Origin: an uncultured Candidatus Saccharibacteria bacterium
Lineage (GTDB): Bacteria; Patescibacteriota; Minisyncoccia; Phycocordibacterales; UBA5272
NCBI GenBank assembly: GCA_964457775.1
Contig: CAYWEW010000008.1
Span: 1-58,786 of the forward strand
Reading direction: 5' to 3'
DNA length: 58,786 nt
Shown here one piece after another: positions 19,846 through 46,505 of the stretch; the stretch's first letter is position 1, and every line of letters begins with the position of its first letter. The notes beneath the pieces were generated by a model. It was not told the origin of the DNA, did not search any database, and saw only the letters and a program-made list of their open reading frames with translations. A program made the position numbers and the translations under genes.

Positions 19846-19944
19846 GAAAATTGGTAGACTGCAATATTTTACCAATTAGCATCTTTCGCTTGCTAGCTAC
19901 AGATGTCTTCGAAGCCAAGCTTCTCGAGCCACCCGGGCATATTT
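19846..19944 (-). repeat. duplicated 5' fragment of tRNA-Leu interrupted by a ~45-nt module
   Basis: 19928-19944 = 19783-19799 (17/17: first 11 nt of tRNA-Leu plus upstream flank). D-arm-like ATTGGTA/TACCAAT copies at 19846-19880. The intervening 19906-19927 is the reverse complement of 36939-36960 (22/22). Confidence 0.6.
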
Positions 19945-23360: not shown

Positions 23361-23543
23361 ATATAGATAAACTTACCATATCTTCTTATTTATTAAAAGC
23401 TAAAAATTGTTTTAGGTACGCGAAGCATAGAAATTTTCACAGGAAGACGTATATCTAGTACGGCGACCTGTTAAAATTTCGTAACTGAATCAACAGATTC
23501 ATGTCCTGGACAAAAAATAAATAAAATAATTTTTAGCTTTTAA

Positions 23544-27934: not shown

Positions 27935-28100
27935 TTAAAATTCCTCATTCACTTAAGATGAGGAAAGATAGAGATGACTAGTCTTTATCTTTCCATTTAA
28001 TACTTGCGTATTATCTGGCTGGATGTAGCACCTTCTTATTGCTAAGTGGTTGCTGATGGGTCATTGAGCCAGTTGCTCTCGCCACACTCTTGATAAATAA
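27935..28100 (-). promoter_or_regulatory. SAM-I (S-box) riboswitch with terminator, upstream of metK
   Basis: Minus strand reads UUAUCAAGAG-UGUGGCGAGAGCAACUGGCUCAAUGACCCAUCAGCAACC...AAGGUGCUACAUCCAGCCAGAUAA (P1 UUAUC/GAUAA). This is followed by hairpins 27962-27994 and 27941-27965 plus a U-run. Confidence 0.8.
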
Positions 28101-35110: not shown

Positions 35111-36811
35111 ATGACAATTGTCTTTAATGATGAAAAACAAAATAATCAGTTAGCTGACCTTCGTAAAGATGAAGAAGAAGAACTGGTTAAGATACTTTCT
35201 GATAAATATAATTTACCTTATATAGACTTGCGAGGTCTTGCTCCTGAACCAGATGCATTACTTATACTAAAAGAAGATGAGTCTCGGGCGGCGGGACTAG
35301 TTGCATTCAAACTCGTCGGTAGAAAATTATATGTGGCGACATTGTCACCTGAAAATGAAAAAATGGAGGCCTTACTTAAACCATTAGAAGAAAATAATTA
35401 CGAACTTCTTTTGTTTATGTGTTCACACGCCTCCCTTGAACATGCTTATTCTCGCTACGCTGACCTTCACATGGGTCTAAAGGTTGAAAATGGAATGCTT
35501 GAGCTCACACCAGAAAAAATGGTTAAGTTAATGGCGAGTTTCAACACTGTACCTGAGATGACGAAAGTTTTTGACGATCTAGCAAAATCAATAATAGTTT
35601 ATAAAACGACTCGTCTTATAGAACTAATTATTGCTGGTGCACTTAAGTTTGGTGCGAGTGATATACACATAGAACCAGAAGAGCACAAGGTGCGTTTGAG
35701 ATATAGAATGAATGGTGTACTTCAAGATATATCTTTCTTTAATTTTGAAGACCTAAAAAGTATAACTAGTCGTTTCAAATTACTCGCGGGATTAAAACTT
35801 TCAACTAGTGCCATGGCTCAAGATGGACGTTTTGGTATTAATCTTGGTGACGTTGAAGTTGATGTTCGTGTTTCGGTTATTCCTGGAAATTATGGTGAGA
35901 GTTTCGTTATGCGTTTACTTGATCCAAGAAATGCGGTGACCGACCTTGGTAAAATCGCCTTCCCGGAAAAATTACGCGAGGCCGTGAAATATGCTCTAGG
36001 AAAACCAAACGGGGTAATTCTTACAACTGGACCAACAGGAAGTGGAAAGACAACGACTTTGTATGCTTTTCTTTATACGACTTATAATCCAGAAATAAAA
36101 ATCATTACGATTGAAGACCCTATTGAATATCATTTAGAAGGAATAAATCAAACACAAGTAAATGTAAAAAAGGGTTATACATTCGTGGCAGGATTACGTG
36201 CTGCCCTTCGTCAGGACCCTGATGTAATTATGGTTGGTGAAATTCGTGATGAAGATACTGCAAAAGTTGCAATCAACGCCGCTCTTACTGGTCACCTTGT
36301 ATTCTCAACCCTTCACACCAATAATGCTGCTGGTACAATTCCCCGACTTATTGATCTAGGAATAAATCCAAAAGTGCTTGCGAGTGCCCTTTCACTTTCT
36401 CTTGCTCAACGTCTTGTAAGAAAATTATGTAATGAATGTAAACAAAAGTATGAAACAAATGAAAAAGAGGCACGAGTTATAACTAATGTATTAGGTGAAA
36501 TGAAAACTTCTGGAAAGATAGAATCAATGTTGGGACACTCACCAGAACTTAGTTACAATCTTTTTCATGCGGTTGGGTGTTTAAGCTGTGCCGGAAGTGG
36601 CTACAAAGGGCGTATTGGAATATTTGAAGCTGTAGTTATGAATGCTGAGGTTGAAAAGGTTCTAATCACTAATCCAAGTGAAAGAGAGATTGTTATTGCT
36701 TCAAAAAATCAAGGAATTCCATCACTTCGCGAGGATGCTATACTTAAGGTGTTGGAGGGAATCACCTCCTTTGATGAAGTTTCTCGCGTAGTTGATTTGT
36801 ACGCTGAATAG
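35111..36811 (+). CDS. pilB: type II/IV secretion ATPase, PilB/GspE family
   Basis: GPTGSGKTTT Walker A, DPDVIMVGEIRD, GHLVFSTLHTN, and a tetracysteine motif CNECK...CLSCAGSGYKGR. Confidence 0.88.
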   Translation: MTIVFNDEKQNNQLADLRKDEEEELVKILSDKYNLPYIDLRGLAPEPDALLILKEDESRAAGLVAFKLVGRKLYVATLSPENEKMEALLKPLEENNYELLLFMCSHASLEHAYSRYADLHMGLKVENGMLELTPEKMVKLMASFNTVPEMTKVFDDLAKSIIVYKTTRLIELIIAGALKFGASDIHIEPEEHKVRLRYRMNGVLQDISFFNFEDLKSITSRFKLLAGLKLSTSAMAQDGRFGINLGDVEVDVRVSVIPGNYGESFVMRLLDPRNAVTDLGKIAFPEKLREAVKYALGKPNGVILTTGPTGSGKTTTLYAFLYTTYNPEIKIITIEDPIEYHLEGINQTQVNVKKGYTFVAGLRAALRQDPDVIMVGEIRDEDTAKVAINAALTGHLVFSTLHTNNAAGTIPRLIDLGINPKVLASALSLSLAQRLVRKLCNECKQKYETNEKEARVITNVLGEMKTSGKIESMLGHSPELSYNLFHAVGCLSCAGSGYKGRIGIFEAVVMNAEVEKVLITNPSEREIVIASKNQGIPSLREDAILKVLEGITSFDEVSRVVDLYAE

Positions 36812-36816
36812 ATTAT

Positions 36817-36868
36817 AGTCGAAAGTCTATAAAGTCAAAAATCCATAAAGTAACTTTGGACTTTAAAC
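36817..36868. repeat. empty AAAGTC-iteron palindromic element
   Basis: AGTCGAAAGTCTATAAAGTCAAAAATCCATAAAGTAA is followed directly by the inverted CTTTGGACTTTAAAC. The left arm is near-identical to 4574-4610. Confidence 0.6.
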
Positions 36869-36889
36869 TATCACTTTCTTTTAAATAAA

Positions 36890-37315
36890 ATATTAGCTAC
36901 GAGGCGCAACAGATTTTTGAGACCAAGATGTACGAGTATCGAGAAGCTTGGCTTCGAAGAGTTCCGTAGCTAGAAAGCGAGGGAACAAAACATTTCAGCA
37001 AAAATCTGTTGCAACAAAGTAGATGATGTTTTATTGGAAATGAAAAAACCCATATACCTCTAAGCAACCCCTTGGTGAAGAATAATCCTTCGTGAGGATA
37101 GGCACAGTACGTAACAAGTACGACCAGACCGTCCTTCGAAATAGAAAATGGGAGAAACTCCCGATTGTTTAGAGATATATAGGTTCTGACAAAGATTCAT
37201 ACGTCGTTTGTTCGTTAACAAAAATCATTATGTACTTTGTAGGAAAGAGGGACGGCTGTTTTTTCAGCATCACCAATTGGTGAATTTTCACTTCTACGTC
37301 TCTCCTACAAAATAC
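36890..37315 (+). ncRNA. candidate large structured RNA of unknown class
   Basis: No ORF. Helices: 36894-36901/36965-36972, 36906-36919/36999-37012 (14 bp, crossing the first, so pseudoknot topology), 37058-37067/37165-37174 (with a G-U pair), 37238-37254/37297-37310, plus local hairpins. Confidence 0.35.
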
Positions 37316-37407
37316 ACATCGATTTTCATTTATTGACAAAATCCGTATGAACTGTATCTATTATATCATATATAAAACTTTTGTCAAATACTTTTTTATA
37401 ACCCAAA

Positions 37408-38391
37408 ATGACCCCTTTAGACCCTACAATTGAACTCGAAGAAACCAGACATTTAGACAGTACTCTTCGACCTGAGAAATTTTCTGAATATATTGGTCAG
37501 GAAACCATAAAAAAGAACCTCCATATACTCCTTACAGCAGCACGCGAGCGTAATACTCCACCAGAACACATACTTTTATATGGTCCGCCAGGACTTGGAA
37601 AGACTACACTTGCTCATCTAATCGCAAAGGAGTTAAATGCGAACTTAAAATTATCTAGTGGTCCAGCAATTATGAAAGTTGGGGACTTGGCTGCTATTTT
37701 AACCAACCTCACCCCGGGTGATATTTTGTTTATTGATGAAATTCATCGGCTTAATAAAATGATTGAGGAAGTGCTTTATCCAGCAATGGAGTCAGGTAAA
37801 TTAGATATTGTTATTGGTAAGGGTCCGTCCGCCCGTACTATACAACTAGACCTTCCACCTTTTACATTAATCGGTGCAACGACTCGTATATCACTTCTGT
37901 CATCCCCTCTTCGTTCACGTTTCTCAGGAGGCACTTATCGTCTTCAATATTATAACGAGGATGAAATAGCAACAATAGTAGAAAACAGTGCGAAGATTTT
38001 AGGAATAACTATCCCAAATGACGCTGCGCTTGAAATAGCAAAGCGTTCAAGATTCACTCCACGTATTGCTAACTATTATCTTAAACGTGCTCGTGATTAT
38101 GCTCAGGTACATAAAGCAATTATTGATAAAGACGTAGTTGATACATCCCTCGCATTACTTGAAATTGATGAGTTCGGTATTGGCATATCAGAAAGAATGG
38201 TATTGGATGCTCTCGTTAATACATTTAATGGCAACCCTGTCGGTATTAATACGTTAGCTGCATCTACCGGTGAGGAAGAGGCAACCATTGCTGATGTTAC
38301 GGAGCCGTATCTTCTTCAAATCGGAATGATAGAAAGAACTCCTCGTGGTAGAAAGGCTACAGAAAAAGCAATTCTTCATTTTAAAAAATAA
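37408..38391 (+). CDS. ruvB: Holliday junction DNA helicase RuvB
   Basis: LRPEKFSEYIGQE, GPPGLGKTTLA, ILFIDEIHRL, TLIGATTR. Confidence 0.92.
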   Translation: MTPLDPTIELEETRHLDSTLRPEKFSEYIGQETIKKNLHILLTAARERNTPPEHILLYGPPGLGKTTLAHLIAKELNANLKLSSGPAIMKVGDLAAILTNLTPGDILFIDEIHRLNKMIEEVLYPAMESGKLDIVIGKGPSARTIQLDLPPFTLIGATTRISLLSSPLRSRFSGGTYRLQYYNEDEIATIVENSAKILGITIPNDAALEIAKRSRFTPRIANYYLKRARDYAQVHKAIIDKDVVDTSLALLEIDEFGIGISERMVLDALVNTFNGNPVGINTLAASTGEEEATIADVTEPYLLQIGMIERTPRGRKATEKAILHFKK

Positions 38392-44881: not shown

Positions 44882-45167
44882 ATTACTTAGTATATATAAA
44901 ATATAATACTAAGTATAGGTCTGTGGATGATGTGGAGATTATATAAAAACCCTTATAAAATAACAACTTATCGAAAATATTTAAAATTTAATTTATAAAA
45001 TTATAAAAATTCATAATGTGGATAGAATTATAAAATTTAAATATTTATTAAAATAACATAACAGTTATTAATATATTATTATTTATTTATCCACAGAGAT
45101 ATACACAACAGTAATATAAATAAAAAATTATAAGATTTTAATCTTATAATTTTTTTAATAAATATTT
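44882..45167. other. oriC-like AT-rich spacer with DnaA boxes
   Basis: TTATCCACA (45087-45095, perfect consensus), TGTGGATAG (45017-25), TGTGGATGA (44922-30), TGTGGAGAT (44931-39). Long A/T tracts lie between dnaN and dnaA. Confidence 0.7.
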
Positions 45168-46505
45168 TTATAAAAGCATTGCCCTTATATCTTCAACCTC
45201 TCTTGTTAATTGTGGATTATCTTTTAATATACCTTTAATTTTTTCATATGAATGAATAACTGTTGTATGATCTCTACCCCCTAATCTATCTCCAATCATT
45301 GGATAAGATATATCAAAATCTTCACGTAATATATACATAACTATTTGACGAGGTTTCACTACATCTTTACGACGCGTTTTATTATAAATATATACATCAG
45401 GTATATGATAATAATCAGCAATTAATTTTACAATTTCTGGAATAGATATACTTTTTTTAGCACGCACACTATTTTTAAGAAGATTTTTTACATCAAGTAA
45501 TGTTATAGCTTGTTGTTTAATTTGTATATGACCTAAAACAGAGGTCATCACCCCTTCCAATTCACGAATATTACCCTGTATTGTTTCTGCTATATATTGA
45601 AGAACTTCCTGTGGAATTTTTTCATGATGGTCTTTTGCTTTTGATTGTAATATAGCAAGACGTGATTCTACTTGAGGAATATTCACATCAACTATCATTC
45701 CTTGATTAAAACGTGAACGTAATCTATCTTCAAGACCAACGATAAGATTTGGGTGTTTATCAGATGAAAAGATAATTTGTTTATTCATTTCATATAATGA
45801 ATTAAAAAGGTGGAATAATTCATCCTGGGTTCTTTCTTTACCATTAATAAATTGAATATCATCCATAATAAAAACATCATATTTACGATATTTTTCTTTA
45901 AAACTATTAATTTTATTAAGATTAGTTGCATTAACATAATCCATGTAAAATTTTTCAAGAGATGTATAAAAAACTTTTCTTTCTGGATATTTCTTTTTAA
46001 CTGTATTTCCAATTGCCTGCATCATATGAGTCTTTCCGAGACCAGTATTTCCATAAACAAAAAGAGGATTATAAACAATACCAAGATTATTAATAACTGC
46101 TTGAGAGCAAGCGTAAGCAACCTCATTAAAAGAACCAACTATAAAAGTATCAAATGTATAACGAGGGTTTAAACCATCATCTTTATTAACATATAAATCT
46201 TGAAGCGGAAGAGTTTGTCCTGTTATGGTTATATTTTGGGATTTCTTTTGTAAAGTTTCTGGTTTAACAACTGTAAAAACAACAGAACGAACACCTTCGT
46301 GAATAGTGCGTAATATTCTGAGAATAAATTTGTGATATTTTTGATTGAGCCAATCTTTAACAAACTCATTAGGAACACCAATAGTAACCTCCCCTTCTTT
46401 GTAATCAATAATACGAGTATTCTTAAACCAAGTATTAAAGTTAACTCGAGAAAGTTCTATCTCAATTTGAGACAAAGCACTATTCCAAAGTTGTTGATAG
46501 TCCAT
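45168..46505 (-). CDS. dnaA: chromosomal replication initiator DnaA
   Basis: NPLFVYGNTGLGKTHMMQAIGN, VFIMDDIQF, DRLRSRF, and a C-terminal DNA-binding domain (GGRDHTTVIHSYEKI). Confidence 0.93.
   Translation of the reverse strand: MDYQQLWNSALSQIEIELSRVNFNTWFKNTRIIDYKEGEVTIGVPNEFVKDWLNQKYHKFILRILRTIHEGVRSVVFTVVKPETLQKKSQNITITGQTLPLQDLYVNKDDGLNPRYTFDTFIVGSFNEVAYACSQAVINNLGIVYNPLFVYGNTGLGKTHMMQAIGNTVKKKYPERKVFYTSLEKFYMDYVNATNLNKINSFKEKYRKYDVFIMDDIQFINGKERTQDELFHLFNSLYEMNKQIIFSSDKHPNLIVGLEDRLRSRFNQGMIVDVNIPQVESRLAILQSKAKDHHEKIPQEVLQYIAETIQGNIRELEGVMTSVLGHIQIKQQAITLLDVKNLLKNSVRAKKSISIPEIVKLIADYYHIPDVYIYNKTRRKDVVKPRQIVMYILREDFDISYPMIGDRLGGRDHTTVIHSYEKIKGILKDNPQLTREVEDIRAMLL

What the first reader, a model, noticed from the sequence alone, without database searches (positions are those of the whole stretch)
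36890..37315. ~430-nt ORF-free, densely base-paired region between pilB and ruvB: candidate large ncRNA
The 596-bp spacer is very long for this compact genome and has no credible ORF. The base-paired elements are:
- TAGCTACG (36894-36901) with CGTAGCTA (36965-36972).
- GCAACAGATTTTTG (36906-36919) with CAAAAATCTGTTGC (36999-37012), 14/14. These two helices interleave, giving pseudoknot topology.
- CTCTAAGCAA (37058-37067) with TTGTTTAGAG (37165-37174). This includes a G-U pair valid only on the plus strand, and the helix extends through A/T pairs.
- GTAGGAAAGAGGGACG (37239-37254) with CGTCTCTCCTAC (37297-37308).
- Local hairpins at 37085-37099, 37150-37162, 37207-37222 and 37271-37282.

The size and ornate long-range pairing resemble large bacterial ncRNAs or ribozymes. 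I could not match it to RNase P, tmRNA, SRP, 6S or a group I intron by signature sequences.
Basis: partly seen in the sequence, partly recalled or inferred. Interest (0 to 1): 0.65.

Follow-up and report, generated by a model that had tools for sequence, protein, structure and literature searches.

The report
Conserved small RNA gene, opposite strand
The "430-nt RNA" is three separate things, and the real one is an undescribed, strongly conserved ~145-nt structured small RNA gene on the opposite strand with its own perfect promoter, found between pilB and ruvB throughout a large group of Patescibacteria.

Summary
The pilB-ruvB spacer (36812-37407) has no credible ORF and folds far better than shuffled sequence. 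It is not one large plus-strand RNA. It has three parts.

- **D2 (37187-37045, minus strand).** A ~145-nt four-helix small RNA. It follows a 12/12 consensus promoter (TTGACA-16-TGaTATAAT, 37387-37360) and ends in a U-tract. It is present at 76 of 80 ruvB-anchored loci, with weak matches at the other four. It is also present at 31 of 31 unanchored metagenome hits. Covariation is strong: 97% of cells are paired, and 29 of 47 pairs show double changes. G·U pairs outnumber A·C by 502 to 30, which fixes the strand. In one relative the promoter and RNA are inverted together. There is no Rfam 15 match.
- **D1 (36875-37041).** One copy of a dispersed ~120-nt palindromic repeat family.
- **D3 (37196-37351).** A hairpin private to this genome, inserted between the promoter and D2.

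The function is unknown. My leading guess is an abundant protein-binding RNA that sequesters RNA polymerase as 6S RNA does (about 25%).

The parts
37382..37387 (-). -35 hexamer TTGACA of the small RNA promoter. It overlaps the ruvB-side TTGTCA on the plus strand.
   Evidence: One search gives a 12/12 match. One search finds the same promoter upstream of D2 in essentially all of 107 loci, with 96 at 11/12 or better.
37360..37368 (-). Extended -10 element TGaTATAAT, 16-nt spacer. The predicted transcription start is near 37353 (inferred).
   Evidence: In L080 the promoter is inverted together with D2.
37196..37351 (-). D3: a long imperfect hairpin (53-nt arms, 74% complementary) between the promoter and D2. 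It is private to this genome and would form the 5' leader of the primary transcript.
   Evidence: I1. One search shows it is absent in L001 and L003, with a different ~190-nt insert in L002. One search finds no other copy. One search shows DNA contigs of relatives skipping 37194-37357. One search gives z = -9.35 on minus. One search gives a leader of 172 nt here against a median of 45 nt.
37045..37187 (-). D2: the conserved small RNA core. P1 pairs 37187-37163 with 37069-37045 (23 bp). P2 is the hairpin 37162-37150. J2/3 is 37149-37140. P3 is the long arm 37139-37090. J3/4 is 37089-37082. P4 is the mini-hairpin 37081-37070 (UCUU-CACC-AAGG).
   Evidence: nhmmer and the covariance model find it in the relatives. 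RNAalifold and pair counts support the structure. The covariance model scores 164.9 bits on minus against 34.2 on plus. G·U outnumbers A·C by 502 to 30.
37038..37048 (-). U-rich tract (UUUUUUCAUUU) at and after the 3' strand of P1, giving a terminator-like 3' end.
   Evidence: Sequence. 49 of 67 homologues have 5 or more U in the last 10 model positions.
36875..37041 (+). D1: one copy of a dispersed ~120-nt palindromic hairpin repeat family. The outer stem pairs 36879-36900 with 37019-37040. The inner 14-bp stem pairs 36906-36919 with 36999-37012.
   Evidence: I4, I6. One search gives the nhmmer family. One search shows 22 of 31 pairs with double changes. (covariance model R2) gives 65 bits here, plus copies at other sites and in both orientations in other loci.
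36937..36983 (.). Private apical insert within D1.
   Evidence: absent from orthologous D1 copies; DNA contigs skipping 36938-36997.
23394..23511 (+). Second D1-family copy in the window, lying between two minus-strand genes.
   Evidence: 64.3 bits.
35111..36811 (+). Flanking gene: PilB/GspE-type secretion or pilus ATPase.
   Evidence: T2SSE at 5.9e-116, plus an MshEN domain.
37408..38391 (+). Flanking gene: ruvB.
   Evidence: RuvB_N, AAA_lid_4 and RuvB_C.

Best explanation
The spacer is a mosaic of three unrelated structured modules.

**D2, the functional core.** D2 is an independent small RNA gene on the minus strand (37187-37045).
- A perfect sigma-70-type promoter with an extended -10 (37387-37360) would start transcription near 37353.
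- In this genome the transcript would first run through a private 156-nt hairpin (D3). It would then form the conserved RNA.
- That RNA has a 23-bp closing stem that joins its 5' and 3' ends (P1), a short hairpin (P2), a long arm with invariant internal loops (P3) and a mini-hairpin (P4).
- It ends at the U-tract that follows P1.

**D1.** D1, downstream of D2, is a copy of a dispersed palindromic repeat. It is probably a MITE- or REP-like element that can also act as a bidirectional terminator hairpin between the convergent pilB gene and the small RNA.

**What is shown.** The gene model, the strand, the structure, the conservation and the mosaic nature are shown.

**What is inferred.** Given the consensus-strength promoter, the ends paired into a long rod, the invariant helical and loop nucleotides and the one-per-locus distribution, I infer an abundant housekeeping RNA that works by binding a protein. 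The most likely named mechanism is decoy binding of RNA polymerase holoenzyme, as in 6S RNA. In that reading, P1 and P3 are the flanking duplexes and J2/3 and J3/4 form the open region. I give that specific mechanism about 25%. The confidence given here refers to the gene model, not to the function.
For: **Conservation**
- Only D2 and the promoter block are conserved in 80 ruvB-anchored loci from Paceibacteria-type MAGs.
- 31 of 31 unanchored DNA-pattern hits in metagenomes also carry D2. In nearly all of them it lies between pilB and ruvB.
- The four loci missed by default filters have weak hits (20-27 bits) at the expected place and strand.

**Structure**
- 97% of cells are paired, against 85% in column shuffles and 39-51% in slid controls.
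- 29 of 47 pairs show double changes, and 0 of 500 shuffles reach the observed values.
- RNAalifold gives 28 of 40 pairs with compensatory changes.

**Strand**
- G·U outnumbers A·C by 502 to 30 on the minus strand.
- The covariance model scores 164.9 bits on minus against 34.2 on plus.
- D2 folds better on minus, z = -5.1 against -3.65.

**Promoter**
- Most loci carry the 12/12 TTGACA-16/17-TGnTATAAT (96 of 107 score at least 11/12), a median of 45 nt upstream of D2.
- In L080 the promoter and D2 are inverted as a unit.

**Other points**
- 49 of 67 homologues have a U-tract after P1.
- The RNA is not coding. Homologue lengths are not multiples of 3 (27, 26 and 14 in the three residue classes), and the ORFs have no Pfam hit.
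- D1 is a repeat. D3 is private to this genome.
- Two probable RNA libraries, X23 and X24, hold 151-166-nt contigs that cover just D2.
Against: - No strand-specific or end-mapped RNA data were available. The RNA-library evidence consists of undirected assembler contigs. Their ends may only reflect where conserved sequence meets variable flanks, and the libraries clearly contain long contigs that look like genomic DNA.
- The Rfam 6S model gives no hit even at E <= 10 on 176 nt.
- The centre of the RNA is a four-way junction with 11-nt and 8-nt joining strands, not an open bubble.
- Primary sequence is far more conserved than is usual for 6S RNAs. A 25-nt stretch is invariant across 60 species.
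- Whether these genomes carry a canonical 6S RNA elsewhere could not be checked.
- The 20-170-nt variable leader means the mature 5' end is unknown.
Confidence: 0.8

Rival explanations
1. One reading: the whole ~430-nt region is one large plus-strand ncRNA or ribozyme with long-range helices and a pseudoknot.
For: The whole spacer folds with z = -7.2 on the plus strand. All the listed helices exist.
Against: - Only the middle 145 nt is conserved.
- D3 is absent from a relative with 96% RuvB identity.
- D1 is a repeat found elsewhere and in both orientations.
- The pseudoknot arm lies in a private insert and is at chance level.
- G·U against A·C counts and the conserved promoter both point to the minus strand.
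- There is no Rfam hit.
Confidence: 0.03
2. D2 acts mainly as a cis-antisense RNA. pilB has no clear plus-strand terminator before ruvB, so read-through pilB-ruvB mRNA would be perfectly complementary to the abundant minus-strand RNA. Duplex formation or head-on transcription would uncouple or tune ruvB expression.
For: - The position between pilB and ruvB is fixed in more than 100 loci.
- The small RNA is antisense to both genes in all loci but L080.
- The small RNA and ruvB promoters share overlapping -35 hexamers.
Against: - In L080 the RNA is co-directional with both genes yet equally conserved.
- The strong structural covariation and invariant loops are not needed for simple antisense pairing.
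- The plus-strand counterpart folds worse.
Confidence: 0.15
3. In this genome D3, D2 and possibly D1 work together as an enlarged, lineage-specific version of the RNA. In this reading the insertions are functional domains rather than passengers.
For: - D3 lies between the promoter and D2, so it must be co-transcribed.
- D3 is more stable on the minus strand, -58 against -49 kcal/mol.
- Several other relatives also have expanded leaders of 103-290 nt.
Against: - The leader inserts are unrelated in sequence between lineages.
- D3 looks like an inverted duplication of the pre-existing leader.
- D1 lies beyond the U-tract and is a dispersed repeat.
Confidence: 0.1
4. The region is a DNA-level element, such as a replication origin, a recombination site or protein-binding palindromes, rather than an RNA gene.
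For: - Hairpins score on both strands.
- L080 has three DnaA-box-like motifs in its leader.
Against: - The window spacer has no DnaA box with one mismatch or fewer.
- The asymmetry of 502 G·U to 30 A·C pairs is the signature of a single-stranded RNA.
- A consensus promoter and a U-tract frame D2.
Confidence: 0.03
5. The spacer holds an overlooked small protein gene.
For: ORFs of 42-56 aa exist on both strands.
Against: - None has a Pfam hit.
- Length variation among homologues is not in multiples of three, and variation is concentrated in compensatory stem changes.
- The D1 and D3 ORFs are not conserved at all.
Confidence: 0.02

Closest known systems
6S RNA (ssrS; Rfam RF00013)
   Same: - It is a stand-alone, single-copy small RNA gene.
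- It has a very strong sigma-70-type promoter.
- Its 5' and 3' ends pair into a long closing stem, and a second long irregular stem lies on the other side of a partly unpaired centre that carries small side hairpins.
- It is a similar size to the shortest known 6S RNAs (from my own knowledge).
- It is near-universal within its clade.
   Different: - It gives no score against the Rfam 6S model, even at E <= 10.
- The centre is a four-way junction (P1-P4) with 11-nt and 8-nt joining strands, not a large bubble.
- Primary sequence is unusually invariant.
- No product-RNA or polymerase-binding data exist.
   Same: It is a structured, covarying, ORF-free intergenic RNA of unknown function.
   Different: - The conserved unit is 145 nt, not 200-800 nt.
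- There is no Rfam match.
- There is no associated protein gene.
- The apparent size is produced by two unrelated insertions.
ERIC/IRU, REP/BIME, Correia/NEMIS and RUP-type intergenic palindromic repeats (MITE-like), for D1
   Same: - It is a ~100-130-nt imperfect palindrome.
- It has several dispersed intergenic copies in either orientation, sometimes as inverted tandem pairs.
- It has terminal inverted repeats and no coding capacity.
   Different: - This is a different sequence family, seen only in these Patescibacteria.
- Its internal loops are sequence-conserved, and it scores far better in one orientation than the other (for example 119.8 against 29.2 bits).
- Target-site duplications and mobility were not shown.
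Plasmid and chromosomal cis-antisense RNAs (CopA and RNA I type)
   Same: It is a strongly transcribed, structured small RNA encoded opposite a co-directional gene pair.
   Different: One relative carries it in the sense orientation. The conserved four-helix architecture goes beyond a simple kissing-loop design.

Membership tests
6S RNA | Match to the family covariance model (Rfam RF00013 and clan) | tested here: not met
   No 6S hit at gathering threshold, or at E <= 10 on 801 nt and on 176 nt.
6S RNA | 5' and 3' ends paired in a long closing stem, with a second long terminal stem | tested here: met
   P1 is 23 bp and P3 is about 17-19 bp. Both are supported by covariation.
6S RNA | Large, mostly single-stranded central bubble that mimics an open promoter | tested here: inconclusive
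   The centre holds J2/3 (11 nt) and J3/4 (8 nt), plus two side hairpins P2 and P4, forming a four-way junction.
6S RNA | Binds housekeeping RNA polymerase holoenzyme and templates short product RNAs | not testable with these tools
   This needs biochemistry or small-RNA reads. Only undirected contigs were available.
RNase P RNA, tmRNA, SRP RNA, 5S rRNA, known riboswitches and ribozymes | Match to the Rfam model, or an ARAGORN call for tmRNA | tested here: not met
   (Rfam). (ARAGORN finds 6 tRNAs only, none in the spacer).
Large ncRNAs (OLE, ROOL, GOLLD, HEARO, raiA) | Match to the Rfam model, and a conserved unit longer than 200 nt | tested here: not met
   No hits. The conserved unit is about 145 nt.
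MITE- or REP-like palindromic repeat (D1) | Multiple dispersed copies per genome, in either orientation | tested here: met
   There are two copies in the 58.8-kb window (36875-37041 and 23394-23511). L002, L003 and L051 have inverted pairs. L001 and L094 have copies at different sites.
MITE- or REP-like palindromic repeat (D1) | Terminal inverted repeats, an overall hairpin and no ORF | tested here: met
   I4 and I6; 31-pair consensus hairpin.
MITE- or REP-like palindromic repeat (D1) | Target-site duplication and empty-site alleles that show mobility | not tested
   Presence and absence among orthologous spacers is seen, but the junctions were not analysed.
Intrinsically terminated sigma-70 small RNA gene (D2) | Promoter upstream and stem plus U-tract downstream on the same strand, moving together as one unit | tested here: met
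   The unit is inverted in L080.

The most novel reading that the evidence does not exclude
D2 is the so far unrecognised housekeeping RNA of Paceibacteria-type Patescibacteria. It could be a functional analogue of 6S RNA built on a four-way junction instead of a bubble, or the RNA subunit of an unknown ribonucleoprotein. Its 25-nt invariant stretch and invariant P3 loops would then be the protein contact sites. These ultra-small symbionts would thus retain an RNA-based global regulator that current models cannot see.
Probability: 0.25. Interest if true: 0.7.

Novelty: new member of a known kind. Interest (0 to 1): 0.55.

Why it matters
I know of almost no small RNAs described in Patescibacteria (CPR), which have tiny genomes and few regulators; literature searches found no description of this RNA. 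This RNA combines four features:
- a consensus-strength promoter;
- strong covariation;
- a fixed genomic position;
- presence across relatives whose PilB proteins share under 50% identity.

That makes it a well-defined candidate for an abundant core RNA of these organisms. It also gives a ready-made covariance model and a clear experiment. Practically, the result shows that the apparent "large ornate RNA" was produced by two palindromic insertions. It also identifies a dispersed repeat family (D1) that can inflate intergenic regions and mislead structure-based scans in these genomes.

Tried and rejected
- **Known RNA families.** Rfam 15 gave nothing in the spacer at gathering and at E <= 10, on the whole window, on 801 nt and on 176 nt. 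ARAGORN found no tmRNA or tRNA there.
- **Coding.** The spacer ORFs have no Pfam hit. Homologue lengths do not differ in multiples of three. An AUG downstream of a Shine-Dalgarno-like AGAGG in the P1 3' strand is lost in many relatives (alignment).
- **Replication origin.** The spacer has no DnaA boxes.
- **D1 and D3 as paralogues of D2.** The D2 covariance model finds no other copy in the window.
- **Phage origin.** The invariant 25-mer has 0 hits in viral contigs.
- **Alternative hairpin CCUCACGAAGG (37085-37099).** It is not kept in the L058 group. Covariation favours the base of P3 instead.
- **Tertiary pair between the P4 loop CACC(A) and UGGU in P3.** Both are invariant in the main clade, and the loop is not kept in distant relatives, so this cannot be tested.
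- **-10-like UAUUCU in J3/4.** The key A is not conserved.
- **RNA-library contigs as proof of transcript ends.** I rejected these as decisive. Contigs are undirected, and they break where conserved sequence meets variable flanks.
- **Literature.** Four successful searches, including the invariant sequence itself, found no description of this RNA. One call failed on a short term.

Full report
**The region.** The window is from a low-GC Patescibacterium. The closest public relatives are MAGs labelled Paceibacterota, Nomurabacteria, Parcubacteria and similar. The finding lies in a 596-nt spacer (36812-37407). On one side is a PilB/GspE-type ATPase (35111-36811, T2SSE at 5.9e-116). On the other is RuvB (37408-38391). 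The spacer ORFs are 31-56 aa and have no Pfam hit. Rfam 15 gives nothing in the spacer at gathering thresholds or at E <= 10. ARAGORN finds no tRNA or tmRNA there.

The spacer folds far better than dinucleotide shuffles on both strands, z = -7.2 on plus and -8.05 on minus. It resolves into three long-hairpin modules: D1 (36879-37040), D2 (37047-37185) and D3 (37196-37351). Perfect stems of 8 bp or more are enriched, 10 against 4.4 +/- 1.9 in shuffles. A single 8-bp stem is expected by chance, and only the 14-bp stem stands out.

**Comparative evidence splits the region.** I fetched 80 ruvB loci from one-genome-per-species bacterial and archaeal contigs. pilB-ruvB synteny holds in every locus whose contig reaches pilB, and spacers are mostly 240-420 nt. 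Only two blocks of the window spacer are widely conserved, at 70-92% identity. These are window ~37044-37196 (D2) and ~37357-37391. Iterative nhmmer finds D2 in 76 of 80 loci. The remaining four have weak covariance-model hits at the expected place and strand when filters are off. An unanchored scan of metagenome contigs with the invariant 25-mer TTCTTCACCAAGRGGTTGYTTAGAG returned 31 loci. All carry D2, and nearly all place it between pilB and ruvB. Viral contigs gave none.

**D2 is a structured RNA on the minus strand.** RNAalifold on 71 sequences predicts 40 pairs, 28 of them with compensatory changes. On a covariance-model alignment of 67 sense-strand sequences:
- 97.0% of cells are paired, against 85.0% in column shuffles and 39-51% when partners are slid.
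- 29 of 47 pairs have double changes, and 0 of 500 shuffles reach any observed measure.
- That alignment is fitted to the model, but the independent MAFFT and RNAalifold result agrees.

The architecture in window coordinates is:
- P1: 37187-37163 with 37069-37045
- P2: 37162-37150
- J2/3: 37149-37140
- P3: 37139-37090
- J3/4: 37089-37082
- P4: 37081-37070

Four lines of evidence fix the strand:
- G·U cells outnumber A·C cells by 502 to 30.
- The model scores 164.9 bits on minus against 34.2 on plus.
- D2 alone folds better on minus.
- Most loci carry a 12/12 consensus extended -10 promoter (TTGACA-16/17-TGnTATAAT; 96 of 107 score at least 11/12), a median of 45 nt upstream of D2 in the D2 sense.

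In L080 the promoter and D2 are inverted together relative to pilB and ruvB. This shows they form one independent transcription unit. P1 is followed by a U-tract in 49 of 67 homologues. Homologue lengths do not differ in multiples of three, so the RNA is not coding. The overall counts outweigh it.

**D1 is a dispersed palindromic repeat.** nhmmer and a second covariance model (R2) find D1-type hairpins in many places:
- at the orthologous site in several relatives;
- as inverted tandem pairs in L002, L003 and L051;
- on the other side of the small RNA promoter in L001;
- elsewhere in L094;
- a second time in the window, at 23394-23511.

The family has a covarying 31-pair hairpin with conserved internal loops. 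Orthologous copies lack this insert, as do co-occurring DNA contigs. The interleaved "pseudoknot" is therefore an accident of this copy.

**D3 is private to this genome.** It is absent from L001 (96% RuvB identity) and L003. L002 has a different ~190-nt insert at the same place. D3 has no other copy in the data held here. Its left arm is an inverted copy of the pre-existing leader sequence. It lengthens the distance from promoter to D2 from a typical ~45 nt to 172 nt. It is more stable on the minus strand, which fits co-transcription as a leader.

**Expression.** Two probable RNA libraries hold 151-166-nt contigs that cover just D2. Wastewater metatranscriptomes cover D2-like sequences. These are undirected assembler contigs, and the libraries also contain long contigs that look genomic. 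This is weak support only.

**Mechanism.** The following are shown: a promoter, a four-helix RNA and a U-tract forming one unit; the strand; the structure; and wide conservation at a fixed site. The function is inferred. The consensus-strength promoter, the rod-like P1/P3 layout with a partly open centre, the invariant nucleotides in helices and loops, and the single copy per locus point to an abundant protein-binding RNA. Sequestration of RNA polymerase, as by 6S RNA, is the best named candidate at about 25%. Three things count against it: no score with the Rfam 6S model, a four-way junction in place of a bubble, and unusually high sequence conservation. A cis-antisense role on pilB-ruvB read-through is the main rival at about 15%. 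L080, where the RNA is in the sense orientation, weakens that rival.

**Novelty and verdict.** No Rfam family, no ARAGORN call and no paper in the searchable library matches this RNA. I file it as a new family of a known kind: a bacterial structured small RNA gene.

Noticed in passing
window 44922-45211: A cluster of four DnaA-box-like 9-mers, each with one mismatch or fewer to TTATCCACA and a perfect match at 45087. This may be the replication origin.
   Followed up: no
window 19860-19940 (minus), just upstream of tRNA-Leu(GAG) at 19793-19709: This stretch starts with a copy of the first 11 nt of the tRNA (GCCCGGGTGGC). It contains a 42-nt segment 90% identical to the private insert in D1 (36939-36979). 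Metatranscriptome contigs cover this segment at high depth, with flanks like this copy rather than like D1. There is no Rfam or ARAGORN call.
   Followed up: partly
L080 3650-3705: Three DnaA-box-like motifs (ATATCCACA, TTATCCACA, CTATCCACA) lie in the 129-nt leader between the small RNA promoter and D2. This is the one relative where the unit is inverted.
   Followed up: no
window 37381-37387 and the homologous site in relatives: The small RNA -35 (TTGACA, minus) and a ruvB-side -35 (TTGTCA, plus) occupy the same palindromic TTGACAA/TTGTCAA. This gives back-to-back divergent promoters. The L053-L063 group has a clear plus-strand TTGTCA-17-TAAAAT. In the window group the sequence just upstream of the ruvB ATG is C/T-rich, with no obvious Shine-Dalgarno sequence.
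   Followed up: partly
window 27982-28099 (minus): A SAM-I riboswitch at 60.3 bits.
   Followed up: no
L039 and L040 (contig CAZNZQ010000005.1): The same pilB-small RNA-ruvB locus appears twice on one 53-kb contig, in opposite orientations and with identical match statistics. This is either a large inverted duplication or an assembly artefact.
   Followed up: no
window 37333-37341 and 37379-37387: A perfect 9-nt inverted repeat, TTGACAAAA / TTTTGTCAA, brackets the small RNA promoter and start region. The distal arm is conserved only in the closest relatives (L001, L002, L003, L005). It may be an operator.
   Followed up: no
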